Virus record (IMG/VR): IMGVR_UViG_2061766007_000951
Reading direction: 5' to 3' (one strand)
Length of the DNA stretch: 64,000 nucleotides
Origin: an uncultured virus (IMG/VR IMGVR_UViG_2061766007_000951)
Lineage: Duplodnaviria > Heunggongvirae > Uroviricota > Caudoviricetes
In this document: positions 3,908 to 58,794 of the stretch, one piece after another
How positions within the stretch are numbered: the stretch's first letter is position 1
Layout: each line of letters begins with the position of its first letter
Notes under the pieces: generated by a model
The model's input: the letters and a program-made list of their open reading frames with translations, nothing else
Told to the model about the DNA's origin: nothing
Database searches by the model: none
Program-made: the position numbers and the translations under genes

Positions 3908-5244
3908 TATGCTGCCTCCTTAATTTTGCGGGGCTTTGACTTCCATTTTGTTTTTGGAACCTGTTCCATCCACTTGGATAAAGCAACGCGAACCTCATCA
4001 GATGGTGCACAATCAGTACGGTCAGTTTCATCTGCATAGAACTGCCCGATTTTCCCTGTCGGATAAATCTGAGCTGTTGCAACCGGAACACCTTCTTTTT
4101 GAATAAATACGATTGTATAATTTCCATCTGCAGTGCCCTGATAATAACCACACGCGCAAATACACTGATGCAGAGCCTTTGCCTGTTTCTGCCATTCGTC
4201 ATAATCTGAAGTTACAAAAATTGAATAACCGTCAATGGAACTGTTAATTTCTGCAAACTTCTTCTCTATTCTCTTAATGGCCTTTTTCTGTTCCTTAAGA
4301 CGCTTTTCTTCTTCTCTTGCCTCCTGAATCATTCTTGCCTCCCTTTCTATTCGCTCTTCTTCAACAAGTCTGTCATGGAACTCATTAAGATTTGAAGGAT
4401 AACGCCAGTATTCATCATCAAAAGAATGGTTGCTTCTCTGAAGCATACAAAGATAATCTCTGTATAAATCAACAAGCTGCTTCATGGCTTTTTCTTCTTC
4501 TTCGTGAGTTGAAACAAACTTTTTTCGAGCTTTCTTTATGTATTTGAAATCTTCAAAGCTTATGCTGACTGTATAAGGATATTTTTTATCCGGTCGATAC
4601 CAGGAAGATACATAATGAAAATATTCAGCACATAAAGAAGGATTTACCGAGCGCATAGCGGCTCTTATTTCTTGAAGATTCAGATTCAAACAAAGCGGAT
4701 TGTTCTTAATGAATCTGCAAACAGCTTTCCGGTTCTTTTCAGTCATTCGCCAGAAGGTTTTATTGAATCCGATTTTCTCATATCCGGCAGCAAGCAGAAT
4801 TTCAAGTTCTCTATGCTCCACCCATAATTCAAGTATGCTAATAAGCTCAGCCTTTGACTGTATATCAAACTTATTCGCCAGGTATTTGAAACTAGGATAA
4901 AGCTGACAAACAAAATCAATATCTGCATCTGTTACACTATCAGAATAACCGACACTTGATCTTCTTTGTCTTTTACTCCAGCCTTCAAGTTGAGCAATAT
5001 CTGGATTATAGTACCAATAAGAACGCTCATTATAAGGTAAGCCTGGGAAAGCTACGCAATGACCTCCCCACATGCTATGATAAAGATTCTGCTCCCACGA
5101 TTCCCCAGAATCAGATTCCTTGTATACATCGCAGGAGTAAATATCTTCAGGATGATTCTTATGCCACCATTCAGCAGTAAGAATCCTGACAATCTGCCCG
5201 TTTTCAATTTCCAGACGGTCGTACCAGTTCTTAGGAGAATGCAT
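3907..5244 (-). CDS. PcfJ-like domain protein
   Basis: C-terminal QAKALHQCI..YY..IVFIQKEGVPVATAQI..IGQFYA; paired with PcfK-like gene. Confidence 0.7.
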   Translation of the reverse strand: MHSPKNWYDRLEIENGQIVRILTAEWWHKNHPEDIYSCDVYKESDSGESWEQNLYHSMWGGHCVAFPGLPYNERSYWYYNPDIAQLEGWSKRQRRSSVGYSDSVTDADIDFVCQLYPSFKYLANKFDIQSKAELISILELWVEHRELEILLAAGYEKIGFNKTFWRMTEKNRKAVCRFIKNNPLCLNLNLQEIRAAMRSVNPSLCAEYFHYVSSWYRPDKKYPYTVSISFEDFKYIKKARKKFVSTHEEEEKAMKQLVDLYRDYLCMLQRSNHSFDDEYWRYPSNLNEFHDRLVEEERIEREARMIQEAREEEKRLKEQKKAIKRIEKKFAEINSSIDGYSIFVTSDYDEWQKQAKALHQCICACGYYQGTADGNYTIVFIQKEGVPVATAQIYPTGKIGQFYADETDRTDCAPSDEVRVALSKWMEQVPKTKWKSKPRKIKEAA

Positions 5245-6341: not shown

Positions 6342-6647
6342 CTAAGCTCCTGCGCTGTCGGCATCCTTCGCATTTGCTGCATCCTTATGTCTTTGCGCTG
6401 CCTGTTCTTTTCCCTGTACAAACCAGCGGAAATCTTCTAAACGCTTATAGCGTTCTTCTGATAAAGGGCGAGAGCTTTCTTCTACGCTCATGTATCTGAT
6501 TTTATTTTCAAAACCTTCGCTGGCATGAATGAAAATATCTGCATCAATAGACTTTTCCCCGTCTATTTCGCGATAAGCTTTTGCAAGATCATTACAAAGG
6601 TTTTTCATTTCAAAATAATAGGAATATTTTGTCATCTGATTGTTCAT
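6342..6647 (-). CDS. Conserved hypothetical early protein
   Basis: Ortholog at 52050-52346 (KRLEDFRWFVQGKE shared). Confidence 0.7.
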   Translation of the reverse strand: MNNQMTKYSYYFEMKNLCNDLAKAYREIDGEKSIDADIFIHASEGFENKIRYMSVEESSRPLSEERYKRLEDFRWFVQGKEQAAQRHKDAANAKDADSAGA

Positions 6648-6841
6648 ACGCTCTGCCCTCCCAAGCGTTTGTGTTTGTTAGCCCATTTTTCCAGATCTTC
6701 AACAAGATAAAGCCTTACGCTGTTCATCTTGAAATATGGAAGATCTTTAATGCCGTACAAGGTAGTCCGCCCTATACTCAGCATTTCACATGCCTGCTTT
6801 ACCCTGACACAGATAAGCTGCCTCTTTTGCTTACCTTTCAT
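6644..6841 (-). CDS. Excisionase-like HTH protein
   Basis: VRVKQACEMLSIGRTTLY; first gene of early operon; GGAGG RBS. Confidence 0.75.
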   Translation of the reverse strand: MKGKQKRQLICVRVKQACEMLSIGRTTLYGIKDLPYFKMNSVRLYLVEDLEKWANKHKRLGGQSV

Positions 6842-7029
6842 TTTTATTTTCCTCCGGTAAAAGACGGGAATAAGAGAGTGCCGATATATCAGAAATTGCA
6901 GAACGGATTATCCTGCACTCTCCTCTTCCCTAGAGTGTTGTTTTTATGACAGACGCAATCGACGATTGCGGTAAGTCCGAAAGGAACAGTGCAGGAGCCT
7001 TGGGTCTTTGGATGAGAGCCCCTGCACCG

Positions 7030-7228
7030 TAAAAAAACAAACCCTCTCACCGGCCAAGCGAAAACCAGTTTGAGGGTTGCTATATTCATTGCGCCACCCG
7101 CCAGAGCAGCACAAATAAATACCTGTATCATTCGCTTGTGTTGAACATTCTTTTACTTAAAGCTGTCAAGGCTTTAAGTAAACCTGCTACTATAGTAGCA
7201 ATCAAAAGTACGCTTTCCGTACTTTCTA
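7030..7228 (-). ncRNA. Putative structured early leader RNA (~200 nt) ending in an intrinsic terminator
   Basis: Promoter at 7234-7262, 12-bp hairpin 7152-7182, terminator stem 7040-7078 plus U7; same layout at 52854-53051. Confidence 0.5.
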
Positions 7229-7287
7229 TAATAACTATATAACGCTTTACGTACTTTGTCAAATAAAAAATTACGTTTTTTGTACTT
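7205..7287. promoter_or_regulatory. Three repressor operators (consensus AAGTACG-N5-CGTACTT) overlapping leftward promoter TTGACA-17-TATAGT (7262-7234)
   Basis: Sites start at 7206, 7238, 7269; first is a perfect 8-5-8 inverted repeat; same spacing in phage B. Confidence 0.75.
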
Positions 7288-7317
7288 TTTCTCGAAAATT
7301 TAAGCAAGAGGTGTTTT

Positions 7318-7668
7318 ATGGCAGAAGTATTAGTTTTTATGGACAGAGTTGAGATGATTTTAAAACAAAAAAAGCTAACTCAAAAAGAGTTAGCTGAGGA
7401 ACTGGGATTAAGGCGTCCATCATTATCCGACTGGAAAAAAAACGGTTCTGTTCCGGCTGGTGATGTTTGTCTTAAAATTGCAAACTATCTTAAAGTTTCT
7501 GTAGAATGGCTTATAAGCGGTAAGGAAGGCGGACTATCAAAAGAAGAGAGCGAGCTCCTGGCACAATGGAGCATGCTCTCTCCTGAACAGAAAAACAATA
7601 TCAATATTCTGCTAGACGGTTGGAAAAAAGCCCGCGACAATGAAAAAAACAATTCGTCGCAAGCTTAA
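7318..7668 (+). CDS. CI-like XRE-family repressor
   Basis: LTQKELAEELGLRRPSLSDWKKNG HTH; divergent from early operon. Confidence 0.9.
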   Translation: MAEVLVFMDRVEMILKQKKLTQKELAEELGLRRPSLSDWKKNGSVPAGDVCLKIANYLKVSVEWLISGKEGGLSKEESELLAQWSMLSPEQKNNINILLDGWKKARDNEKNNSSQA

Positions 7669-7685
7669 AAATCATCACCTGTAAG

Positions 7686-8942
7686 TCATTTTAAGACAGC
7701 CCCGAAAACTTCTGACTGCGCAGCAGTAATTCTTTTTACATCCTCTGCAGTCTGATGGCTGGCATAATGTTCAAGCATCTCAATTGTCTTGTGGCCCGTC
7801 TGACTTTGCAGAGCCTTCTGGTTCACCCGCTCCGCCATGTAAGTAGTATAAAAGTGTCTCCAGGCGTGAAAGGTCATTTTCTTTGCTTCTGCTTCTGACA
7901 TTCCGGCCCTTATAAGAGCCTTGCGAAAATAGGTCAAAAAAAGCTTTCCATCAATAGGCTTATCCGGTGTATAACCCCAGAAAATAAAGCCGGCACCGTT
8001 GTCATAAGGATTACTGTCTGCAAGTTCCCTGAGCTTTTCCATAAGAAAAGGAAAGGCAACATAAACGGTGCGCTCTTCTGTGTTTTTTGTACATTTTAGT
8101 CCATCTTTTGTGTTATAAGAATGGCGCACGAAAATACAGTCATCTCCAAGATCATCTTGTGTGAGTGCAAGAATTTCACCGCATCTCATTCCGGTACACA
8201 TTGCCAGCATGGATGCAATTCGGGAATATTCATTATCCCATTCTACACGGAAAACACTGCGGGCCATTTCCATAGTCAAGATTGCCCTGCGCTTATAAAC
8301 TGTCTTATACATGATCCAGCCGCGTGTAATATCGCGTGGAATAAGCTCGTTATTATAAGCCCACTTGAGCGGAGTAAGGACCGCGCGGAGCACATGGTTT
8401 TTTGTGTTTCCGCTCAAGGTCATTTTATCAAGACGGTCAAACTGCTTCTGGATGTCTTTTCTTCCAAGTTCACCAAGCTTCTTGTCTCCAAGAATTTCAA
8501 GCCAGTGATTTGTTATAAAGGTTGTGGAAGTCATAAGATGCTTCTTGTGGACGGTCTGCCCTTTGCGGTCCTTTTCTCGCAGATATTGAGACTTTTCAGG
8601 GTTCCAGAAGTCTATAAGCCATTGAAGAGCCGGAACATTCAGGATGCCGTTATCATTCAAGACATACCCTGATAAAAACCCTTTGCGCTGGAAGTCCTCC
8701 AGGAACTGCTCAACATCCTCTTTTGTGTAGGTAGATTTCCGGAGCGTATCATATAGTGATATTGCGTCCAGCTTGTCTGACTTTTCGTTGTACATGTCCC
8801 AGGCTTTGCGAAGTGCCCTGTTATAGGTCTTTTCTTTGGTAGAAAGCCATGACATGAATTTGCCGGTGCGCTCGTTACGGAAACGCACATAATAATAGGG
8901 AGACCGGTCCCTGGTGGTAAGTGAGAATGGTAGTTTTTGCAT
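7686..8942 (-). CDS. int: Tyrosine integrase
   Basis: TGMRCGEI, FHAWRH, GHK..MLEHY catalytic motifs; adjacent to attP. Confidence 0.95.
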   Translation of the reverse strand: MQKLPFSLTTRDRSPYYYVRFRNERTGKFMSWLSTKEKTYNRALRKAWDMYNEKSDKLDAISLYDTLRKSTYTKEDVEQFLEDFQRKGFLSGYVLNDNGILNVPALQWLIDFWNPEKSQYLREKDRKGQTVHKKHLMTSTTFITNHWLEILGDKKLGELGRKDIQKQFDRLDKMTLSGNTKNHVLRAVLTPLKWAYNNELIPRDITRGWIMYKTVYKRRAILTMEMARSVFRVEWDNEYSRIASMLAMCTGMRCGEILALTQDDLGDDCIFVRHSYNTKDGLKCTKNTEERTVYVAFPFLMEKLRELADSNPYDNGAGFIFWGYTPDKPIDGKLFLTYFRKALIRAGMSEAEAKKMTFHAWRHFYTTYMAERVNQKALQSQTGHKTIEMLEHYASHQTAEDVKRITAAQSEVFGAVLK

Positions 8943-9010
8943 TGTGCTGCACTCCTTTAATTATCAAGGTTTGCGCTGCACACTTTTTGGCGGGTGGCTT
9001 GTTGCAGTTG

Positions 9011-9689: not shown

Positions 9690-10648
9690 TGTTTTTTCCT
9701 CCAAAAAGTTCTTTATATAAAGCGTCTGTTGTTTTTACGCTCAAATATGAATTGTATTTTACGATGTTTCCGCGCCAGCTTTTATACTGTTCTTTTGCCT
9801 GTTCCACTGTGATGCGCTTTTTGTCTACAAGCCCCTTGAGCTTTTTAAGTTTTCTTCTTTCGCGCACAATTGAACATCTGGCCGGAATAACAAGAATTCT
9901 GCCGGANNNNNNNNNNCCTCTTTTGTGTAGGTAGATTTTCGCAGTGTGTCATAAAGCGAGATTGCATCCAGCTTATCCGATTTTTCGTTGTACATGTCCC
10001 AGGCTTTGCGAAGTGCCCTGTTATAGGTCTTNNNNNNNNNNATATAAAACCTTTCTCAAGCTTTACAATCTGAGTTTTCTTTGAGTTGATCTGTATTCCC
10101 ATCTTCCTGGCAACCTGTTTATATTCTGCCAGAAGCTGTCTTAAAAACTCTTTGTCATTGTGGATGATATAGGTATCGTCCATATATCTGCCATAGTATT
10201 TACAGCCTTTTACTATCTTGCAGAAGTTATCAAGCTCTGTCGGATAAAATATTCCGGCGGTCTGTGAGAGCTGACTTCCAATTCCGACACCTTTTTCTCC
10301 AAAGGTCGATATAAGGTATTTTACAAGCTCGATGATTCTTTCATCATCTATCTTTTCTGCGATTTTCTGCAGAAGCATTTCATGCGGTATGTTATCAAAA
10401 TATTTTGAAAAATCTATAAGAAGAACATAACCTTTATTTCCGTGCTTACGGTAATATCTCTGCAAATGCACTTTCAGGCGGTCCCTTGAAAACTGGATGC
10501 CTTTTCCTTTTACGCTTGCAGCATTGTCATAAATAAGAGACTTGAATAAGACCGGATTCAAGACCTTATCGCACAATGTTCTTTGTACTACCCTGTCTGC
10601 AATATTCATTGCCTTTATATGTCTCTTTTTTCCTCGCTCGTTCAGGTC
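9604..10648 (-). CDS. DGR reverse transcriptase of phage A (interrupted by assembly gaps; 5' end missing)
   Basis: GVGIGSQLSQ and YGRYMDD motifs; colinear with intact RT at 55420-56565. Confidence 0.9.
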
Positions 10649-23743: not shown

Positions 23744-23824
23744 AAGTCCTCCGTAGAAAAAATGACCCGCCGTTTTGAGCTTCTTCGAGAGGCTTGGCGG
23801 GNNNNNNNNNNNNNNNNNNNNNNN

Positions 23825-35352: not shown

Positions 35353-35518
35353 TCTTTACGAACTGTCCGCAGATTTCAATTACTGCTGTTGCACCAATTC
35401 CGATTGAAGAGTTGATGGCTACTGCATAAGCAGGGTTAAAAAATGTAACAACGCCGATTGCGATTGTAGACAAACCGCCAACAATGGCAACAATAAGGTT
35501 GTAAACTTTCTTGCTCAT
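35353..35518 (-). CDS. Holin-like two-TM protein (truncated at gap)
   Basis: MSKKVYNLIVAIVGGL... two TM segments; GGAGG RBS. Confidence 0.5.
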
Positions 35519-43964: not shown

Positions 43965-44619
43965 CTAGCGGTCCTTGTCTCTGATTACGAAGCGGGGACG
44001 GACATAAAAGTACGCACCGCTCGCATAGCAGCAGGCCGCACCGCCGCCGTCGTCCACATAGGCGAAAAGAGAAACTCGACGCGTTATCATTATCAACTTC
44101 TTCAACATCAGAAAGCCAATACCATCGGCTGTATTCGTCATCACAAGCCAAACGGTGCTTTATTTCGTTGAACCACTCAAGCCCGTTATTTTCATCTGAA
44201 CCGCCGAAAATGTCAGCTTTTGACAAAATATCGCACTTTATCTTAAATTTTCCGGCAGCATCTTCATTCCAGTCAGAATCTATTTTGTAGATCTGGGCTT
44301 CAAACTGCGGCATAAACAGCTTCTTAAGATACTTCTTCAAAAGGCTGTTCTTAAAGCAAACTTCTTTTCCGTCCTTAAACGGAGCAATAGACATATTGAA
44401 CATTACGCTGTCAAATAAATACTGGCGCTCACCGTTTGCATTGTAGATGCAGTAAAGCTTTGTTTCCGGTGTTGTGAATTCAGGGATTTCAATTTCTTTG
44501 CCATTAAAAACCGTTTTTCCCCCCGGCAGCTTAAAGCTCGGAATAACTGCATAGTCTCCAACTTCTGCCGCCCATCTGAATAATTCTTTGAGTTCAACTC
44601 TTGTTTCATTAAAAATCAT
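43965..44619 (-). pseudogene. DGR target 2 of phage B, +1 frameshift at 5' edge of VR
   Basis: Ortholog of 33408-34025; VR 43993-44083 is 1 nt longer than TR; restored frame ends FAYVDDGGGAACCYASGAYFYVRPRFVIRDKDR*. Confidence 0.8.
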
Positions 44620-52092: not shown

Positions 52093-52346
52093 GCGGCGGC
52101 ATCTTCCTTGCCCTGAACAAACCAGCGGAAATCTTCAAGACGCTTTAAGCGTTCTTCTGCACAGATACGGTTTGCCTGATCTACTGACATGCCGATAGTT
52201 TTCTGATAAAAACCCTGTTCTGCCATTGAGTAGACATCTACTAAAGGTTCCTTATCGCCTTCTATCGTTCTGAAAGCTTTAACAAGACGATTACAAAGGT
52301 CCTGCATTTCCTGGTAATACTGATAAACAGTCATTGTCTTAATCAT
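52050..52346 (-). CDS. Conserved hypothetical early protein
   Basis: Ortholog 6342-6647; GGAGG RBS. Confidence 0.7.
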   Translation of the reverse strand: MIKTMTVYQYYQEMQDLCNRLVKAFRTIEGDKEPLVDVYSMAEQGFYQKTIGMSVDQANRICAEERLKRLEDFRWFVQGKEDAAAWHLREKEKQSSQS

Positions 52347-52531
52347 GCAGCACCTCCGCGTTTTGCTCTGCCAACTCTTTTGTGGGCTTCCAGATAAGCC
52401 TCCAAATCCTTTATTAAGTAAAGGCGCAGGCTCTTCATTTTGATGTAGGGAATGTCCGACATAAAAAGGGTAGTGCGCCCGATTCCGAGAAGCTTGCATG
52501 CTTCGTTTACTCTTACGCAGATGCGTTCCAT
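52343..52531 (-). CDS. Excisionase-like HTH protein
   Basis: VRVNEACKLLGIGRTTLF; GGAGG RBS. Confidence 0.75.
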   Translation of the reverse strand: MERICVRVNEACKLLGIGRTTLFMSDIPYIKMKSLRLYLIKDLEAYLEAHKRVGRAKRGGAA

Positions 52532-52853
52532 TTTGTTTACCTCCGTTCAACAAAATAAAAAAGAGTGGGAACCGACATCGTCGATTTAATCCGTTGCAGA
52601 ACGCTGCCGGTTCCCATAGGATTTTATATGACTAACACTTTCGGGTAGGGACCTGTAAGTGGAAAGTCCAGAAGAGAGCCCGAGGCGGCGGAGATGGTTT
52701 TGGGTCTGCCGCCCCAGGCAATAACAGCTTTTTGGTGATGAGCCAGGCCCGCTGTCATAACCTCCATACTTCTCGGAAAGAAAGACTTACGGTAATCGTC
52801 CAACTCTCAATCCAAAGCCGTCCAGCGTATTTACACGGCATGCGTAATGGCCT

Positions 52854-53051
52854 AAAAAAAAGAGCCCGTCAAACTGCACGCTTCGAGAAATGCAATCTAA
52901 CAGGCTTTATGTCAAACCGTTTGTCCTGTCGGGGATTTGCGGTTATAACCAGATTAAAACCTCGAAGCTTGTCATTTCTAAGCAGTTTGTCAAGAACTGC
53001 TTAGAATCTGTTAGTATACTAACAGCGATATGTACGGTTCCCGTACTTCAT
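52854..53051 (-). ncRNA. Putative structured early leader RNA (~200 nt) ending in an intrinsic terminator
   Basis: Hairpin 52976-53006; 17-bp G-U-rich stem 52863-52906 followed by U8. Confidence 0.5.
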
Positions 53052-53111
53052 GATTATAGAATATTACGAAAAGCGTACATTGTCAAGAAAAAAATTACAG
53101 AAACCGTACTT
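53030..53111. promoter_or_regulatory. Three repressor operators overlapping leftward promoter TTGACA-17-TATTCT (53086-53058)
   Basis: ATGTACG-N5-CGTACTT (53030), TATTACG-N5-CGTACAT (53062), AATTACA-N5-CGTACTT (53093). Confidence 0.75.
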
Positions 53112-53141
53112 TTTTTTCGATTTAAAAGTAAGGGGTTTTAT

Positions 53142-53483
53142 ATGGCATTTATGGATAATGTAGAAAGGGAATTAGAGAGTAGGGGCATAACTCAAAAAAA
53201 GCTGGCTGAAGATCTGGGCTTAAGAAGGCCCACTTTATCAGATTGGAAAAAGAACGGAGCAATTCCTGCCGGAGACATCTGCATAAAAATTGCAGATTAT
53301 CTCGGAGTTTCTGTTGAATGGCTTATAACAGGAAAAGAAAAGGAAGGAAACGGCCTTACACCAGAAGAGCGCCATTTATTGACACTCTGGGCACACCTCA
53401 CTTCTGAACAGAAAGACACAATCAGCACCCTTTTAGAAAAATGGGAAGCCGATTATGTTCAGGCAAAAAAAGAGAAAGCTTAG
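53142..53483 (+). CDS. CI-like XRE-family repressor
   Basis: ITQKKLAEDLGLRRPTLSDWKKNG. Confidence 0.9.
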   Translation: MAFMDNVERELESRGITQKKLAEDLGLRRPTLSDWKKNGAIPAGDICIKIADYLGVSVEWLITGKEKEGNGLTPEERHLLTLWAHLTSEQKDTISTLLEKWEADYVQAKKEKA

Positions 53484-54766
53484 AAAGTCTGACAATCATC
53501 ACATGGAGCGGGATGTAAAACAGCCCCGAAAATACGCTGCTGTGCTCCCATTATAAGCTTTGCTTCTTCCATTGTCTGATGCGCTGCATAGTGTTCAAGC
53601 ATAACCTGTGATTTATGGCCCGTCTGACTTTGCAGAGCCTTCTGGTTTACCTTATCGGCCATGTAGGTAGTATAAAAATGACGCCAGGCGTGAAAAGTCA
53701 TTTTCTTTGCAGTTTCCTTATCCATACCGGCCTTTATAAGCGCCTGCCTGAAGTACATCAAAAAATGTTTGCCGTCTGTCGGTCTGTCGGGTTTATATCC
53801 CCAGAAAATATAACCCGCTCCGTTTGGATACGGATTAGTCTGTGCAAGCTCGCGCAGTTTTTCTATGATATAAGGGAAGGCAACATATACAGTGCGCTCC
53901 TCGGTGTTTTTGGTACACTTAAGCCCGTCTTTTTCACTCCAGGAGTGGCGCACGTGGATGCAGTCATCTTCCAGATCATCCTTTGTAAGTGCTAAAATTT
54001 CACCGCATCGCATACCGGTACACATTGCCAGCATGGATGCAAGGCGTGAATATTCGTTGGTCCATTCTACACGGAAAACACTGCGAGCCATTTCCATTGT
54101 AAGTATTGCCCGCTTGTGATATTCAGCCTTATACATAACCCAGCCTTTTGAAAGGTCTCTGGGCATAAGCTCGTTATTGTATGCCCATTTTAATGGAGTA
54201 AGGACTGCGCGTAAAATATGATTTTTTGTGTTGCCGCTCAATTCCATTTTATCAAGCCGGTCAAACTGCTTTTGAATATCTGCCCGCGTTAGTTCTCCCA
54301 GCTGTTTATTCTGCAAAAGCTCGGTCCAGTGCTTTCGGATAAACTGCTCGGAATTCATTGTGTGCTTTTTGTGGACTTTCTGCCCTTTGCGAAGCTTCTC
54401 GTTTAAGTAGCGTGATTTTTCAGGATTCCAGAAATCGCACAGCCAGTCTAAAGCCGGAACATTGAGCTTCTGTACATCCGTCAGGCAATAGCCGGAAATA
54501 AAACCTTTGCGCTGGAAATCTTCAAGGAACTGCAGGACATCTTCTTTTGTGTAGGAAGCTTTTTTGATGCTATCATAGAATGAGAGTTTTTCAATATCCT
54601 GTTCGCGGTTGTTGTACATATTCCATGCAGTACGCACAGCTCTGTTGTAGTTTGTTTCTTTTGTGGAAAGCCAGGAAAGATATTTACCGGTGCGCTCATT
54701 TCGGAAACGCACATAATAGTAGGGCGAGTTTGCCCTCGTAGTGAGAGAGAATGGAAGTTTTTGCAT
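53480..54766 (-). CDS. int: Tyrosine integrase
   Basis: TGMRCGEI, FHAWRH, GHK..MLEHY. Confidence 0.95.
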   Translation of the reverse strand: MQKLPFSLTTRANSPYYYVRFRNERTGKYLSWLSTKETNYNRAVRTAWNMYNNREQDIEKLSFYDSIKKASYTKEDVLQFLEDFQRKGFISGYCLTDVQKLNVPALDWLCDFWNPEKSRYLNEKLRKGQKVHKKHTMNSEQFIRKHWTELLQNKQLGELTRADIQKQFDRLDKMELSGNTKNHILRAVLTPLKWAYNNELMPRDLSKGWVMYKAEYHKRAILTMEMARSVFRVEWTNEYSRLASMLAMCTGMRCGEILALTKDDLEDDCIHVRHSWSEKDGLKCTKNTEERTVYVAFPYIIEKLRELAQTNPYPNGAGYIFWGYKPDRPTDGKHFLMYFRQALIKAGMDKETAKKMTFHAWRHFYTTYMADKVNQKALQSQTGHKSQVMLEHYAAHQTMEEAKLIMGAQQRIFGAVLHPAPCDDCQTF

Positions 54767-54839
54767 TTTGCAGGTCTCCTGTGTAGTTTAGTTTTTCACA
54801 GGTTATAACCGCATAATACCCCGACAGGATGTATTTTTA

Positions 54840-55122
54840 TGTACCACTTTGTGTACCACTTTTGATTTTTGCCCCGAAATGCTGTTTTTTACAAACCCCG
54901 CACTTGAGCTAAATCCTTATAATACAACGATTTAAGTGGTCTGATGCTGGGCGGGCTCGAACCGTCTACCTGCTGCTTAGAAGAAGGTCAAAAGGTAGTT
55001 CAAAACCGTTCACATCAATTCGGAAAACCTGCTAAGTCCTTATAATATAACGATTTATGGTTCATGTCAATTTTTAACCGTTCGCAACAGTTCAATTTTT
55101 ATGTACCACTTTTATGTACCAC
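54840..55122. other. attP of phage B with arm-type sites on both sides
   Basis: TGTACCAC pairs at 54840/54852 and 55102/55115; phased GTTC at 54998/55008 and 55060/55080/55090. Confidence 0.8.
54942..54983 (-). other. att core = 3' half of tRNA-Arg(TCT), not a complete tRNA
   Basis: - strand CT-TCT-AA GCAGC AGGTA GACGG TTCGAGC CCGCC CAGCATC A. Confidence 0.85.
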
Positions 55123-55265
55123 TTTTTCAGGCGGCTTTATTTCTTTATCAGATTCTTTAATCACCGTAAAAGAATACTGCGACGCCAGGACACAAGATTC
55201 TTCAACACCGTAATATACAGCGATGATTTTCTTTATGTCTGCCTTATTCAGAACTATTGCCTCTT

Positions 55266-55523
55266 TCATTTTTCAAGCTCCGCAAGACGGGTCTGCAATT
55301 CGTTGATTCTGTCGCGGGCTTCCTGACGCTGGGCTGCAAGCTCTTCATAATCATACGGATCTTCTTCGCCTTTAAGTCTTGCTTCGTAGATTTTGACAAC
55401 CTTCCAGTCGCCGATAGAACTAACTGGAGAATCTAAGGCCGAGACAAGTGAACCAATCTCCTGTCGGATGCTTTCTTCTTCTTCGCGTTTTTGTTCGAGT
55501 GTTTTTTCGTTCTTTGACTTCAT
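55266..55523 (-). CDS. Putative tail-fibre assembly chaperone-like protein
   Basis: IGDWKVVKIYE...RQEARDRINEL; GGAGG RBS. Confidence 0.5.
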   Translation of the reverse strand: MKSKNEKTLEQKREEEESIRQEIGSLVSALDSPVSSIGDWKVVKIYEARLKGEEDPYDYEELAAQRQEARDRINELQTRLAELEK

Positions 55524-56565
55524 TTTGTTTACCTCCAAAAAGATATTTATATAATGCATCCAGATTCCGGACGCTCTTATATGCGTTGTATTTCATAATA
55601 TTTCCGCGCCAACTTTTATACTGTTCTTCTATCTGCTGTTTAGTAATCCTATGTTTATGCAGAAGTACATAAAGCTTTTTAAGTTTTCGTCTCTGGCGGA
55701 CTATGGACCTGTTTACCGGAATGATTACAACCTTGCCCGTTTCGGTTAATAGATAGCGCATCTGCAGAAAGATAAAACCTTTTTCAAGCTTCATAATTTG
55801 TGTTTTTTGGGAATTGATTTTAATACCAAGATTTTGGGAAATTACCTGATATTCTTTATAAAGCTTGCGCAGAAATTCCTTGCTCTCATGGATTATATAT
55901 GTATCGTCCATATATCTGCCATAATATTTACAGCCTTTTACAATCTTGCAGAAGTTATCAAGTTCTGTCGGATAAAAGATGCCGGCGGTCTGGCTCAACT
56001 GACTGCCAATGCCTACTCCCTTATCGCCTTCAAAAGTTTGTACAAGATATTCCGTAAGCTTTATGACTTTTTCATCATCTATCTTTTCTTTGATTTTCTG
56101 CAGAAGTATGTCATGCGGAATGCTGTCAAAATATTTTGAAAAATCTATTTTAAGCACCCAGCCTTTGTTTCCGTGTTTTCTGTAATAGCGCTGCAGATGT
56201 ACTTTAAGTCTTTTTCGTGAAAACTCAATGCCTTTTCCCTTTACGCTGGCTCCGTTATCATATATTAGGTTTTTGAATAATACAGGATTCAAGACATAAT
56301 CGCACAAAGCTCTCTGCAGCACTCTGTCGGAAATGTGCATTGATTTTATATGACGCGGTTTTCCCCGTTCGTTTATATCAAACTCATAAAAAGCTTTCTG
56401 TCTGTAGGTGCCGTCGAGCAAAGCTTTGCGCAGTGTATTTATGTTCTGGAGCAGGTTTGATTCATAACGCTGCACGCTTTCTTTCCAATCAACACCCTTC
56501 TTGCAGTTCATAAATGAATTGTAGAGATTATTCAAATCTGTAAGGCGGTCAAAAAGCTCTGCCAT
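55420..56565 (-). CDS. DGR reverse transcriptase
   Basis: 381 aa; DRVLQRA, KIDFSKYFDSI, GVGIGSQLSQ, YGRYMDD; downstream of TR. Confidence 0.95.
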   Translation of the reverse strand: MAELFDRLTDLNNLYNSFMNCKKGVDWKESVQRYESNLLQNINTLRKALLDGTYRQKAFYEFDINERGKPRHIKSMHISDRVLQRALCDYVLNPVLFKNLIYDNGASVKGKGIEFSRKRLKVHLQRYYRKHGNKGWVLKIDFSKYFDSIPHDILLQKIKEKIDDEKVIKLTEYLVQTFEGDKGVGIGSQLSQTAGIFYPTELDNFCKIVKGCKYYGRYMDDTYIIHESKEFLRKLYKEYQVISQNLGIKINSQKTQIMKLEKGFIFLQMRYLLTETGKVVIIPVNRSIVRQRRKLKKLYVLLHKHRITKQQIEEQYKSWRGNIMKYNAYKSVRNLDALYKYLFGGKQNEVKERKNTRTKTRRRRKHPTGDWFTCLGLRFSS

Positions 56566-56702: not shown

Positions 56703-56803
56703 GATTCAAATCGGGGACGGACATAATTGTTCGTATTGCTCGCATTGTTGTAGTTCGCATTGCCGTTGTTGTTCACATTGGCGAAATTGGAACTCGACGC
56801 GAC
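56703..56803 (-). repeat. DGR template repeat (56712-56803) plus IMH*
   Basis: AAC/AAT-rich (VASSSNFANVNNNGNANYNNASNTNNYVRPR); 29 adenines; differs from VR1 only at adenines. Confidence 0.95.
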
Positions 56804-57456: not shown

Positions 57457-58794
57457 CTACGCTCCGATTACGAAGCGGGGACGGACACAATAGCCCGCAT
57501 AGCTCGCAATGTCGCAGGCCGCAAAGCCGTTGTTGCTCACACCGGCGAAAAGGGAACTCGACGCGACATCGCGCAGCCAGTAATACGACTTTCTGTTATT
57601 GATTGCCATTGTCGAGAAGGCAAACAGCGGCAGACGTGTCTTTCCAGTTCCTGTGTCGTATCCTGAAGAACTCCAGACAACAGAGCCGTAAACTTCAACT
57701 TCTGTCATAAGACAAGCCTGTACGTTGTTCCATGCCCATGAAGAAGATGCGCCTTTTTCAGAATGTAAGCGGTTTTCGTAGGTTGTGGTCACGACAGTCG
57801 ATACCAGCTCATTACAGGTTTTAAGATGACTTCCAAATTCCGCATAAAGCTGCTGGTTTATGGTTGCGCCGCTTGCAGTTGAGCCGGAAGAAACAACCGA
57901 GCCCAGAGTAGACGATGCCATTTCGGAACCCCAATAACCGCCGCTTGTCGTGTTGCTGGAGTTCATTCGTTTTCGTCCAAAATGATTTTTTTCTGTAGGA
58001 TCTGCGCCTTTTCCCGGGATAAGAACCAGATGATGTTTTCCACTTACAGGGTTTAAGCAGTCGTTGTCGCCTTCCGGGAAGGTTGAACCGTTGCCCATGA
58101 GAGTGTCAATGCCGGCAATGGTGACCCACGCTGTTCCGGTTTCTGCATACTGACTGTCCTGATTTGGCGCAGAAATTGCCCGCGACATCTGGAAGTAGTC
58201 TCCGACATAAATATCTTCTAAAACAGAATAGCCGTCGGTACCGTTCAGACGCTTCCACAAAGTGCCGTCGCTGTAATATTCTGTGATGTTCTTACCAAGT
58301 ACACCGTTTATAAAGCGCGGTACATTGTGGTCCTGCTCCATAAAGGCATTTTCTTCAAGCAGAAGCCATTTCTGGTGGCGCACACTCGAAACTGTAATGT
58401 CGATGTATTTAAGGTGCACCCAGCTGTTTGGTCTGCAGGCCCCTACAAGATTGCCCGAAAGTGAAGCAATAGGAAAGGTGCCCGTTCCTGCAAAGTTTAA
58501 GGTTGGAGCTGTGTTTGTGTTTCCGTTTACAAAGAAAACTAAAACCTCGCGCCCCGTAAGTAAAGTAAAGTCAGGACAGCTCTCTGCAGAAAGCGTTGCC
58601 TCCTTGCCCTCTGTTGCGGCAGCTGTCGTACAGATGGCAATAGGAACCGACTGCAGCACCGCTTTTGAAACACCCTTGTCTGCATCATCTGCAGTGCCGG
58701 GCTTGTGCCTTGTCTGAAACATATCACTGTCGCTCAAACTAAGCAGCGACAACCGCTCCGACGATGTAGCACCTTTGAATCTTGTGTTTGACAT
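57457..58794 (-). CDS. DGR target 1 of phage B: putative tail fibre/receptor-binding protein
   Basis: Follows tail tip gene; YYWLRD..VR (57476-57567)..VRPRFVIGA; 18 substitutions vs TR in 92 nt, all at TR adenines. Confidence 0.9.
   Translation of the reverse strand: MSNTRFKGATSSERLSLLSLSDSDMFQTRHKPGTADDADKGVSKAVLQSVPIAICTTAAATEGKEATLSAESCPDFTLLTGREVLVFFVNGNTNTAPTLNFAGTGTFPIASLSGNLVGACRPNSWVHLKYIDITVSSVRHQKWLLLEENAFMEQDHNVPRFINGVLGKNITEYYSDGTLWKRLNGTDGYSVLEDIYVGDYFQMSRAISAPNQDSQYAETGTAWVTIAGIDTLMGNGSTFPEGDNDCLNPVSGKHHLVLIPGKGADPTEKNHFGRKRMNSSNTTSGGYWGSEMASSTLGSVVSSGSTASGATINQQLYAEFGSHLKTCNELVSTVVTTTYENRLHSEKGASSSWAWNNVQACLMTEVEVYGSVVWSSSGYDTGTGKTRLPLFAFSTMAINNRKSYYWLRDVASSSLFAGVSNNGFAACDIASYAGYCVRPRFVIGA

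What the first reader, a model, noticed from the sequence alone, without database searches (positions are those of the whole stretch)
52854..54830. Early leader RNA is complementary to the integrase 5' UTR, with different but matched sequences in each phage
Seen in B: + strand 52924-52950 (TCCTGTCGGGG-ATT-TGCGGTTATAACC) equals the - strand int leader 54829-54801 (TCCTGTCGGGGTATTATGCGGTTATAACC) apart from two 1-nt gaps. Seen in A: + strand 7093-7103 GCCACCCGCCA equals int leader 8998-8988. Also 7106-7114 GCAGCACAA equals 8950-8942, between the int RBS and ATG (and 9/10 to 8979-8970). The A and B sequences are unrelated to each other, yet each matches its own int leader. In both phages the segment lies just before a terminator that ends a ~200-nt transcript from the repressor-controlled promoter. 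Inference: a leader-derived antisense RNA that controls integrase expression once the lytic promoter fires. Alternatives are a long-range pairing in a read-through RNA or a DNA inverted repeat flanking int-repressor.
Basis: partly seen in the sequence, partly recalled or inferred. Interest (0 to 1): 0.72.

Follow-up and report, generated by a model that had tools for sequence, protein, structure and literature searches.

The report
Phage leader RNA unlocks integrase translation
In a group of temperate phages that probably infect gut Treponema, the stretch behind the predicted lytic promoter is complementary to the front of the integrase gene, and the two sequences change in step from phage to phage; it likely makes a small folded RNA that is predicted to open a hairpin hiding the integrase ribosome-binding site, which would tie integration and excision to the lytic switch by a route not found in our literature searches.

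Summary
In B the match is the best in the 69.5-kb contig (score 46, shuffles at most 34). In A alone it is at chance level, but relatives support it. In 15 of 18 distinct relatives the leader segment binds its own int 5' UTR better than 100 of 100 shuffles, with compensatory changes: B and L001 have 99% identical Int yet three matched seed changes on both sides. The segment is the middle hairpin of a 110-127 nt RNA module (pseudoknot strand, antisense hairpin, terminator). Its 7-10 bp pseudoknot is kept in 14 of 15 loci with unrelated sequences, and it has no Rfam match. The target is the anti-Shine-Dalgarno arm of a hairpin that makes the two int starts the most occluded of 55 in the window. 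Predicted binding halves the opening cost, so activation is likelier than repression. No transcript was shown, and the sign of regulation rests on folding models. Verdict: new variant of a known kind (activating antisense RNA, closest to IsrK); interest 0.74.

The parts
52854..52972 (-). Phage B leader RNA module (119 nt): pseudoknot strand, AU linker, antisense hairpin P2, terminator hairpin P3, U-tract
   Evidence: homologous module in 23 of 24 loci (L048 mis-anchored there, placed by hand)
52961..52968 (-). B pseudoknot 5' strand; pairs with the terminator loop 52887-52880
   Evidence: covariation
52880..52887 (-). B pseudoknot 3' strand in the apical loop of the terminator hairpin
52924..52950 (-). 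B antisense segment to the int 5' UTR (within hairpin P2, about 52949-52912)
52854..52907 (-). B intrinsic-terminator-like hairpin P3 with many G-U pairs, plus U-tract
   Evidence: -23.5 kcal/mol on this strand versus -10.0 on the other
53058..53086 (-). B predicted lytic promoter (TTGACA-17-TATTCT) among GTAC-box inverted repeats at 53032-53046, 53065-53078 and 53096-53109 (CI operators by inference)
   Evidence: operator role inferred
52976..53023 (-). B optional upstream unit: 14-nt palindrome (53010-53023) plus a 12-bp hairpin with a TTGACA loop (52976-53006); role unexplained
   Evidence: TTGAC-loop hairpin found in 21 of 24 loci, not in L002, L012, L037
52619..52632 (-). B second antisense element, complementary to the cI ribosome-binding site and AUG (53132-53146)
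52343..52531 (-). B xis-like HTH gene, first gene after the leader
   Evidence: 56% identical to A's ORF, which matches Pfam HTH_17; excisionase role inferred
53142..53483 (+). B CI-like repressor gene
   Evidence: Pfam HTH_3 and Phage_CI_repr
53480..54766 (-). B tyrosine integrase gene
   Evidence: Pfam Phage_integrase
54767..54839 (-). B int 5' UTR: GC-rich seed 54829-54819, target to 54801, hairpin 54802-54778 (outer stem about 54819-54763) covering the AGGAG Shine-Dalgarno
54833..55126 (-). B attP-type site: arm-type repeats 54833-54863 and 55095-55126 around the 3' half of tRNA-Arg(TCT) (54983-54942)
   Evidence: the core continues into tRNA 5' halves in laid contigs; complete tRNA-Arg(TCT) upstream of int in 7 clade loci
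7031..7142 (-). Phage A leader RNA module (112 nt); pseudoknot 7138-7131 with 7062-7055; antisense segment 7115-7093
7234..7262 (-). A predicted lytic promoter (TTGACA-17-TATAGT)
7152..7199 (-). A palindrome (7186-7199) plus TTGACA-loop hairpin (7152-7182)
6931..6953 (-). A second antisense element, complementary to the cI start region 7301-7325
   Evidence: not significant against a leader-wide null (7 of 60)
8943..9010 (-). A int 5' UTR: seed 8998-8988; hairpin about 8982-8944 covering the Shine-Dalgarno
7686..8942 (-). A tyrosine integrase gene
7318..7668 (+). A CI-like repressor gene
6644..6841 (-). A xis-like gene
   Evidence: Pfam HTH_17

Best explanation
The lytic leader is complementary to the integrase 5' UTR and co-varies with it, and it likely makes a pseudoknotted small RNA that is predicted to pair in trans with the int message and free its ribosome-binding site, so that integrase would be made only while the repressor-controlled promoter is on. 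SHOWN in sequence: the complementarity and its compensatory changes; conserved pairing potential of the pseudoknot, of hairpin P2 and of the terminator; a hairpin over the int Shine-Dalgarno (SD); in prophage-state loci, int directly downstream of a host tRNA-Arg gene on the same strand. PREDICTED by folding: the GC-rich apex of P2 (often GGCG) meets the upstream UTR loop (often CGCC), then the RNA zips along the anti-SD arm and opens the SD hairpin, as in a toehold switch. INFERRED: in a lysogen, int RNA keeps being made by read-through from the tRNA promoter but stays translationally locked. When CI is lost (induction) or not yet present (infection), the leader RNA unlocks Int just as Xis appears. 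Read-through leader RNA also carries a second element that would block cI translation.
For: Cognate binding beats 100 of 100 dinucleotide shuffles in 15 of 18 loci; cognate ranks first in its row in 11 of 18 and first in its column in 11 of 18, with most rivals being near-identical seed types. Seed: 91% of cells paired versus at most 83.5% in 2000 partner permutations; 127 of 128 cells paired in the central 8 columns, 5 of them with two or more Watson-Crick pair types (16 loci). B versus L001: three matched seed changes on each side, only one other substitution in the 119-nt RNA, Int 98.8% identical. Pseudoknot of at least 7 bp in 14 of 15 cognate versus 8 of 210 swapped pairs; terminator more stable on the leader strand in 14 of 15. 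The two int starts are the most occluded of 55 window starts (14.1 and 11.9 versus median 5.6 kcal/mol). Cognate RNA lowers SD opening energy in 18 of 18 and -20..+3 opening in 17 of 18, below all 20 shuffled cores in 16 of 18. Out of sample: L125 (Int 61%) has a new matched seed, and L128 (Int 44%) a 17-nt perfect match, -22.2 kcal/mol, 0 of 100 shuffles, opening 14.2 to 9.0. Complete tRNA-Arg(TCT) upstream of int in 7 clade loci, with a sigma70-like promoter seen by eye in the 5 printed. Anti-cI element: 18 of 19 beat 200 shuffles and 17 of 19 favour the leader strand, as G-U pairing predicts.
Against: No transcript, binding or reporter data. A (7 of 100), L026 (9 of 100, 8-nt seed only, apparently mosaic) and L048 (89 of 100) fail the binding test. 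L037 becomes more occluded with its RNA (5.8 to 10.0). The int duplex shows no clear strand bias (11 of 18), so that test does not separate RNA from DNA pairing. With the whole module and no pseudoknot modelled, the best complex opens the SD hairpin in 4 of 6, leaves it shut in L049 and covers the start in L007. Distant integrases with no module found also have occluded starts (7.0-13.5 kcal/mol), so the lock alone does not imply the RNA key. L125 showed opening only after I extended the RNA core by 10 nt, having seen the first result (12.9 to 12.2; 12.9 to 5.8). Against a leader-wide null the anti-cI match passes in 5 of 8 tested (A, L032, L128 fail), and in B the best window there is a different stretch just after the terminator.
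Confidence: 0.63

Rival explanations
1. The same trans pairing represses int, by covering the start region or by making a long duplex that a double-strand RNase cuts. Int would then be kept low during lytic growth, functionally like lambda sib retroregulation.
For: In A the RNA has a perfect 9-nt match between SD and AUG. In L007 the unconstrained full-module complex covers the start region, and L037 becomes more occluded. Duplexes of 25-45 bp are plausible nuclease substrates (general knowledge).
Against: In the 18 core complexes the main pairing is to the seed and the anti-SD arm, and SD opening energy falls in 18 of 18. The start is already locked without the RNA. Excision needs Int together with Xis, exactly when this promoter is on (established for tyrosine integrases).
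Confidence: 0.13
2. The control runs the other way. int-UTR RNA made from the host tRNA promoter in the lysogen binds the nascent lytic leader, blocks the pseudoknot (an anti-terminator in this view) and forces termination: an RNA immunity layer like P4 CI.
For: The pseudoknot engages the terminator loop in every type. The UTR target lies between the two pseudoknot strands. The UTR lies downstream of a tRNA promoter in prophage loci. The early genes lie beyond this terminator, so read-through must be controlled somehow.
Against: The pseudoknot strand pairs almost only with loop bases and is compatible with the terminator stem. The terminator stays folded in 6 of 6 complexes. This view does not explain why complementarity extends over the anti-SD arm. 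It can coexist with the best explanation.
Confidence: 0.1
3. The pairing is in cis: an int transcript reads through cI and the control region and folds back on its own 5' UTR about 1.8 kb away.
For: Both segments are on one strand. In 21 of 23 loci int and cI stop codons are within 67 nt, mostly with no room for a terminator.
Against: L014 and L037 carry extra genes and, by eye, a U-tailed hairpin between int and cI (gaps 412 and 725 nt), yet keep the match. The module has its own predicted promoter and terminator, and its loop-to-loop geometry suits trans recognition.
Confidence: 0.07
4. The match acts at the DNA level: an inverted repeat for flipping the int-cI cassette, a shared protein site (B contains a 10-bp palindrome), or, most boldly, a guide RNA that pairs with DNA beside the arm-type sites to steer the integrase.
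For: The target starts within about 12 nt of the arm-type repeats, and the int duplex has no strand bias (11 of 18).
Against: The match is gapped and bipartite, and its sequence differs from phage to phage. The palindrome is not conserved. The arm site lies directly before the UTR in 58 of 59 clade loci (duplicates included), and no strand-changing joint was listed in 4 laid runs. The target coincides with an RBS hairpin.
Confidence: 0.05

Closest known systems
IsrK sRNA of Salmonella prophage Gifsy-1 (PMC4825925; passages read)
   Same: A prophage RNA made as the terminated 5' part of a longer transcript, with partial read-through. It acts in trans by pairing with one strand of an inhibitory helix and making an RBS accessible.
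   Different: IsrK acts on its own mRNA (orf45-anrP, an antirepressor). Here the target is an unlinked gene, the integrase, 1.7-2.5 kb away. No Rfam hit; the pseudoknot to the terminator loop and the phage-specific seed are not among the IsrK features in the passages read.
c4 antisense RNA of phages P1/P7 (review PMC12197685, passages) and P4 CI RNA (passage in PMC4825925)
   Same: Leader-derived, structured phage RNA that recognises a same-phage target, likely through loops, with phage-specific sequences.
   Different: c4 blocks translation of the antirepressor and CI causes termination; both favour lysogeny or immunity. Here the RNA is predicted to come from the lytic promoter, to activate int and to oppose cI. 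No Rfam C4-type match in the window or 10 relatives.
Lambda int control by pL/pI and sib retroregulation (PMC5300877, passages)
   Same: Post-transcriptional control that ties Int level to the phage's state and to the attP versus prophage layout.
   Different: sib is a cis element downstream of int, and int shares the pL transcript with xis. Here int lies on the far side of cI from the promoter that drives xis, and the link is a separate RNA acting on the 5' UTR.
Anti-antisense activators (DsrA/RprA on rpoS, RNAIII on hla) and synthetic toehold switches (all recalled, no call)
   Same: An RNA pairs with the anti-SD strand of a leader hairpin, starting from an exposed upstream seed.
   Different: Those are host regulators or engineered parts. 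This one is phage-encoded, has 25-45 bp complementarity, and comes in more than a dozen natural seed variants.

Membership tests
Trans-acting anti-antisense translational activators (IsrK-like mode) | Target RBS sequestered in a leader hairpin | tested here: met
   Folding only: int starts rank 1 and 2 of 55; median 11.7 kcal/mol in 26 clade loci
Trans-acting anti-antisense translational activators (IsrK-like mode) | RNA complementary to the anti-SD strand, with predicted release of the RBS | tested here: met
   (16 of 18 beat all shuffled cores); mixed with the full module (4 of 6)
Trans-acting anti-antisense translational activators (IsrK-like mode) | Discrete small RNA is transcribed | tested here: inconclusive
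   Only contigs were available; they cannot show strand, ends or level
Trans-acting anti-antisense translational activators (IsrK-like mode) | Translation rises with the RNA and compensatory mutations restore it | not testable with these tools
   needs a reporter or toeprint
IsrK / Rfam-catalogued phage sRNA families | Match to an Rfam covariance model | tested here: not met
   No hit over the module at E up to 1 in the window or in 10 relatives
IsrK | Target lies in the RNA's own read-through mRNA and encodes an antirepressor | tested here: not met
   The target is the int UTR, upstream of and separate from the leader
P1/P7 c4 and P4 CI immunity RNAs | Targets the antirepressor RBS (c4) or flanking seqA/seqC in the same leader (CI) | tested here: not met
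   Best match in the contig for B is between leader and int UTR; the second element targets cI. I did not search for weaker targets of the RNA elsewhere in the genome
P1/P7 c4 and P4 CI immunity RNAs | Matured by RNase P from a longer leader (recalled) | not testable with these tools
   No end-mapping data
Invertible segments flanked by inverted repeats | Both orientations occur | tested here: not met
   Arm site directly before the UTR in 58 of 59 loci; no strand-change joint listed in 4 runs; contigs drop rare variants

The most novel reading that the evidence does not exclude
The first 500 nt of the lytic transcript form an all-RNA commitment switch with two addressed arms. A pseudoknotted toehold RNA turns integrase translation on, and a read-through element turns repressor translation off. 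The seed acts as a phage-specific address, so that related prophages sharing the tRNA-Arg site each unlock mainly their own integrase. This would be a natural family of orthogonal toehold switches that controls recombination timing.
Probability: 0.4. Interest if true: 0.88.

Novelty: new variant of a known kind. Interest (0 to 1): 0.74.

Why it matters
A prophage whose int gene lands behind a strong host tRNA promoter has to keep integrase off for stability, yet supply it on cue for excision. This locus offers a concrete answer: lock the int ribosome-binding site and let the repressor-controlled leader RNA be the key. I found no report of an sRNA that activates a phage integrase (paper searches), and the RNA is not in Rfam. 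Nature supplies the compensatory mutants (B versus L001), so the test is cheap. A set of natural matched RNA/UTR pairs with low predicted cross-talk between seed types would also interest synthetic biologists.

Tried and rejected
Expression: of 12 runs listed I laid 8, all contigs. In three RNA-library runs of three studies (X3, X5, X6) short contigs cover the leader region. One ends at the U-tract with no loose end, two run across the terminator, and none covers int. X4 covers int/att only. One stop is below the tool's two-study hint, DNA can be present and uncovered parts prove nothing, so this is not used as evidence. Strand test on the int duplex: 11 of 18, uninformative. RNAalifold on the MAFFT alignment recovered the terminator and the P2 apex but misplaced the P2 base and cannot show the pseudoknot, so I used anchored counts instead. 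Model R1 built on it is partly mis-structured. R1 over 151 genomes of the host family hit 2: the training locus, and one terminator-like stretch with no integrase in the 8 kb fetched, rejected as chance. A degenerate pattern in IMG/VR gave 23 matches: 4 known loci, and 19 with no U-tailed terminator, rejected. Of 10 distant integrase loci (38-44%), only L128 had a leader match above its null; L130's match is an arm-site repeat. The idea that distant integrases without the module have open starts was tested and failed. No cultured relative in GenBank phages (best 25% identity). RNAduplex on whole leaders over-extended and was used only to locate the match. The 10-bp palindrome in B as a protein site was rejected as not conserved. 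The TTGACA hairpin loop as a -35 box was rejected: no -10 at 16-18 nt, by eye and.
Full report
SETTING. The window is the first 64 kb of a 69,533-nt virus record. Self-comparison shows two related temperate phage genomes of about 35 kb, A and B, each apparently a circle opened at a different point and joined (the joining is my inference, a 99% relative of B is a 35,408-nt contig). Each has, on the minus strand, an attP-type site (arm repeats on both sides of a tRNA-Arg 3' half), a tyrosine integrase, a convergent CI-like gene, a leader of about 480-610 nt and a small xis-like HTH gene. The closest named relative lies in an uncultured Treponema MAG (Int 64%), and another sits in a bin labelled Proteobacteria (69%). 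Three more clade members came from genomes of that Treponema's family. The host is therefore probably Treponema.

OBSERVATION. Coordinates and letters are as stated. For B the leader is the best match to the int UTR in the whole contig, 46 against at most 34 for 20 shuffled UTRs. For A alone the match is not above chance: it is not in the top 8 windows, and shuffles reach 35.

RELATIVES. Scans gave 9 viral, 38 metagenome and 13 genome loci; a repeat viral scan returned the same 9 contigs. With A and B, 25 non-identical loci had an Int at least 61% identical and a full leader. I carried 24 into (L035 dropped as a near-copy of L005) and 18 into the energy tests (L004, L006, L009, L010, L015, L023 dropped as near-copies). 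Ensemble binding of the antisense core to its own UTR beat 100 of 100 dinucleotide shuffles in 15 of 18. A (7 of 100), L026 (9 of 100) and L048 (89 of 100) failed. L026 has only an 8-nt seed match and looks mosaic. L048 has an A-rich match partly buried in its own hairpin. Cognate pairs ranked first in 11 of 18 rows and 11 of 18 columns, and the competitors were mostly the same seed type. In an anchored 14-column seed alignment of 16 loci (L008, L012, L048 left out, L125 added), 91% of cells pair versus a maximum of 83.5% in 2000 partner permutations. The central 8 columns pair in 127 of 128 cells, and 5 of them hold two or more Watson-Crick types. The cleanest case is B versus L001: Int is 98.8% identical, the seed differs at three positions in the UTR and at the three partner positions in the RNA, and the RNA has only one other substitution, an A-U to G-U change in the terminator. 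A versus L016 and L007 versus L033 also show matched changes. Related sequences are not independent, so the permutation count is not a probability.

THE RNA. The antisense segment is the middle of a 110-127 nt module. A 7-10 nt 5' strand is complementary to the apical loop of the terminator. With windows set by anchors, 14 of 15 cognate pairs reach 7 bp or more versus 8 of 210 swapped pairs, the latter among look-alike types, and the strand has about a dozen unrelated sequences (L001, L008, L012 left out as sharing a strand). The terminator folds better on the leader strand in 14 of 15. With the pseudoknot strands held out, the antisense segment folds as a hairpin (P2) in 17 of 17 loci, often capped by GGCG, and the UTR seed often sits in an upstream hairpin with CGCC at or next to its loop. 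This suggests loop-loop initiation (inference). No Rfam family matches at E up to 1. From the predicted promoter the terminated leader would be 197-198 nt. Its 5' 80 nt hold an operator-like repeat, a palindrome and a hairpin with a TTGAC loop, found in 21 of 24 loci and not found in L002, L012 and L037, so that hairpin is not needed for the module.

SIGN OF REGULATION. The int UTR folds a hairpin whose 3' arm is the Shine-Dalgarno and whose 5' arm (typically ACCU) is the second half of the RNA's target. The int starts of A and B are the two most occluded of 55 window starts. Cognate core lowers the SD opening cost in 18 of 18 and the -20..+3 cost in 17 of 18 (B: 12.1 to 5.5 kcal/mol), below all 20 shuffled cores in 16 of 18 (A 4 of 20; L037 reversed). 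Against this: with the full module and no pseudoknot modelled, 4 of 6 complexes open the hairpin, L049 leaves it shut and L007 adopts a register over the start. Distant integrases without a detected module are also fairly occluded (7.0-13.5). Activation is thus the best reading, not a shown one.

WHY A LOCK. ARAGORN found a tRNA gene in 10 of 43 loci; 7 are clade loci with a complete tRNA-Arg(TCT) on the int strand, ending 168-190 nt before the int start in the 5 printed. By eye those 5 have a sigma70-like promoter before the tRNA. Four show no U-tailed hairpin before int, and L037 has a 13-bp hairpin without a clean U-tract. Read-through into int in the lysogen is therefore plausible (inference). 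Excision needs Int with Xis (established for tyrosine integrases), and an RNA from the promoter that also drives xis would supply both together.

OUT-OF-SAMPLE. Of three new clade genomes, L125 has a new matched seed and a module found by the model (E 5.7e-4). Binding was -17.3 (1 of 100 shuffles) with no opening on my first cut, and -17.2 (0 of 60) with opening 12.9 to 5.8 after I extended the core by 10 nt. L126 and L127 are decayed and lack the leader. Among 10 distant loci only L128 (Int 44%) matches: 17 nt perfect, -22.2 kcal/mol, 0 of 100 shuffles, opening 14.2 to 9.0, but only E 0.42 to the model.

A SECOND ELEMENT. Downstream of the terminator the leader carries GUCAUA(U)AAAA..., complementary to the cI SD and AUG. 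In 19 loci (L032 used for L005, whose cI start was mis-called; L048 had no cI hit) 18 beat 200 shuffles and 17 favour the leader strand through G-U pairs, and A-tract lengths track those of the cI leader. Those windows were centred on the motif. Against a leader-wide null, 5 of 8 pass (A, L032, L128 fail), and B's best window was another stretch just after the terminator, -20.4 versus -19.8. In L125 the two copies form a 14-nt direct repeat, and the near-identical L126 has one copy with the whole control region between them gone. The element would damp cI translation once transcription reads through (inference).

RIVALS. Repression by the same pairing (0.13); reverse control of termination by UTR RNA (0.10); cis pairing (0.07; L014 and L037 keep the match despite inserted genes and a U-tailed hairpin seen by eye); DNA-level action (0.05; arm site directly before the UTR in 58 of 59 clade loci, duplicates included; no strand-change joint listed). 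Expression data were inconclusive.

LITERATURE. Ten full-text searches listed nothing on an RNA pairing with a phage int leader; for most hits I saw only listings and abstract starts. I read term-matched passages of PMC4825925 (IsrK activates in trans by freeing an RBS; P4 CI terminates via seqA/seqC), PMC12197685 (review of phage sRNAs; 'integrase' and 'excision' occur 0 times; c4, sar, OOP), PMC5300877 (lambda sib), and PMC5737381, PMC8040213 and PMC11109978 (motif surveys, no matching motif in the passages). Their supplements were not opened and could hold the motif, and subscription journals are mostly absent from the library. DsrA/RprA, RNAIII, toehold switches and RNase P maturation of c4/CI are recalled. 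Earlier scan notes describe other RNA/int-leader matches in unrelated phages; these are unchecked and not used as support.

VERDICT. A real, covarying RNA-RNA address between the lytic leader and the int 5' UTR, in an uncatalogued pseudoknotted RNA. It works like an IsrK-type activator but is not a member of IsrK, c4 or CI. New variant of a known kind; confidence in activation 0.63; interest 0.74.

Noticed in passing
window 52619-52632 with 53132-53146; 6931-6953 with 7301-7325: Second leader element complementary to the cI RBS and AUG, covarying across relatives; a candidate anti-repressor antisense arm.
   Followed up: yes
L125 2389 and 2740; L126 2435: A decayed prophage (L126) has lost promoter, operators and RNA module by deletion between the 14-nt repeat formed by the cI start and the anti-cI element.
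   Followed up: partly
window 52976-53023 and 7152-7199: Palindrome followed by an 11-13 bp hairpin of variable stem but conserved TTGAC(A/G) loop; one per phage, found in 21 of 24 loci and also in distant L128. Could be a processing site, a face-to-face cI promoter or a sigma decoy; unexplained.
   Followed up: partly
window 53022-53355: Laid contigs swap the operator and cI N-terminal part at joints 53022/53289 and 53022/53355 while leader RNA and int stay: an exchangeable immunity cassette (also L003 versus L004).
   Followed up: no
whole record, junction near 35400: The record looks like two circular phage genomes of about 35 kb joined end to end, each with an attP-type site, rather than tandem prophages; possibly an assembly chimera.
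   Followed up: partly
window 55420-56565, 56709-56803, 57473-57567, 43979-44083; 9845-10609: Reverse transcriptase genes with template and variable repeats (a DGR), including a remote repeat copy near 43980 and 33400.
   Followed up: no
window 23765-23801: Rfam abiF RNA motif above its gathering score; a similar stretch lies at the record's end.
   Followed up: no
window 54908-54934 and 55031-55057: A 27-nt imperfect palindrome repeated on both sides of the att core; the upstream copy holds the -10 of a near-consensus promoter (55070-55042) facing int in the attP state.
   Followed up: no
L037 about 1705-2430; L048 about 4260-4870; L014 and L027 after int: Cargo genes inserted between int and cI; the pairs in L037 and L048 look HicA/HicB-like (label recalled, not tested).
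   Followed up: no
L026 4844-4959: The UTR is of the L003 type but the leader RNA resembles the L002/L014 type, leaving an 8-nt seed: a natural mismatched recombinant worth testing.
   Followed up: partly
window 8717-8831 and 9917-10031: A 115-nt stretch of the A integrase gene is repeated (90%) inside A's reverse transcriptase region; may be a misassembly or an insertion.
   Followed up: no
about window 52830-52850: In B a further stretch just after the terminator also pairs with B's cI start (-20.4 kcal/mol); the same stretch is in L001, whose cI start differs, so it may be chance.
   Followed up: no
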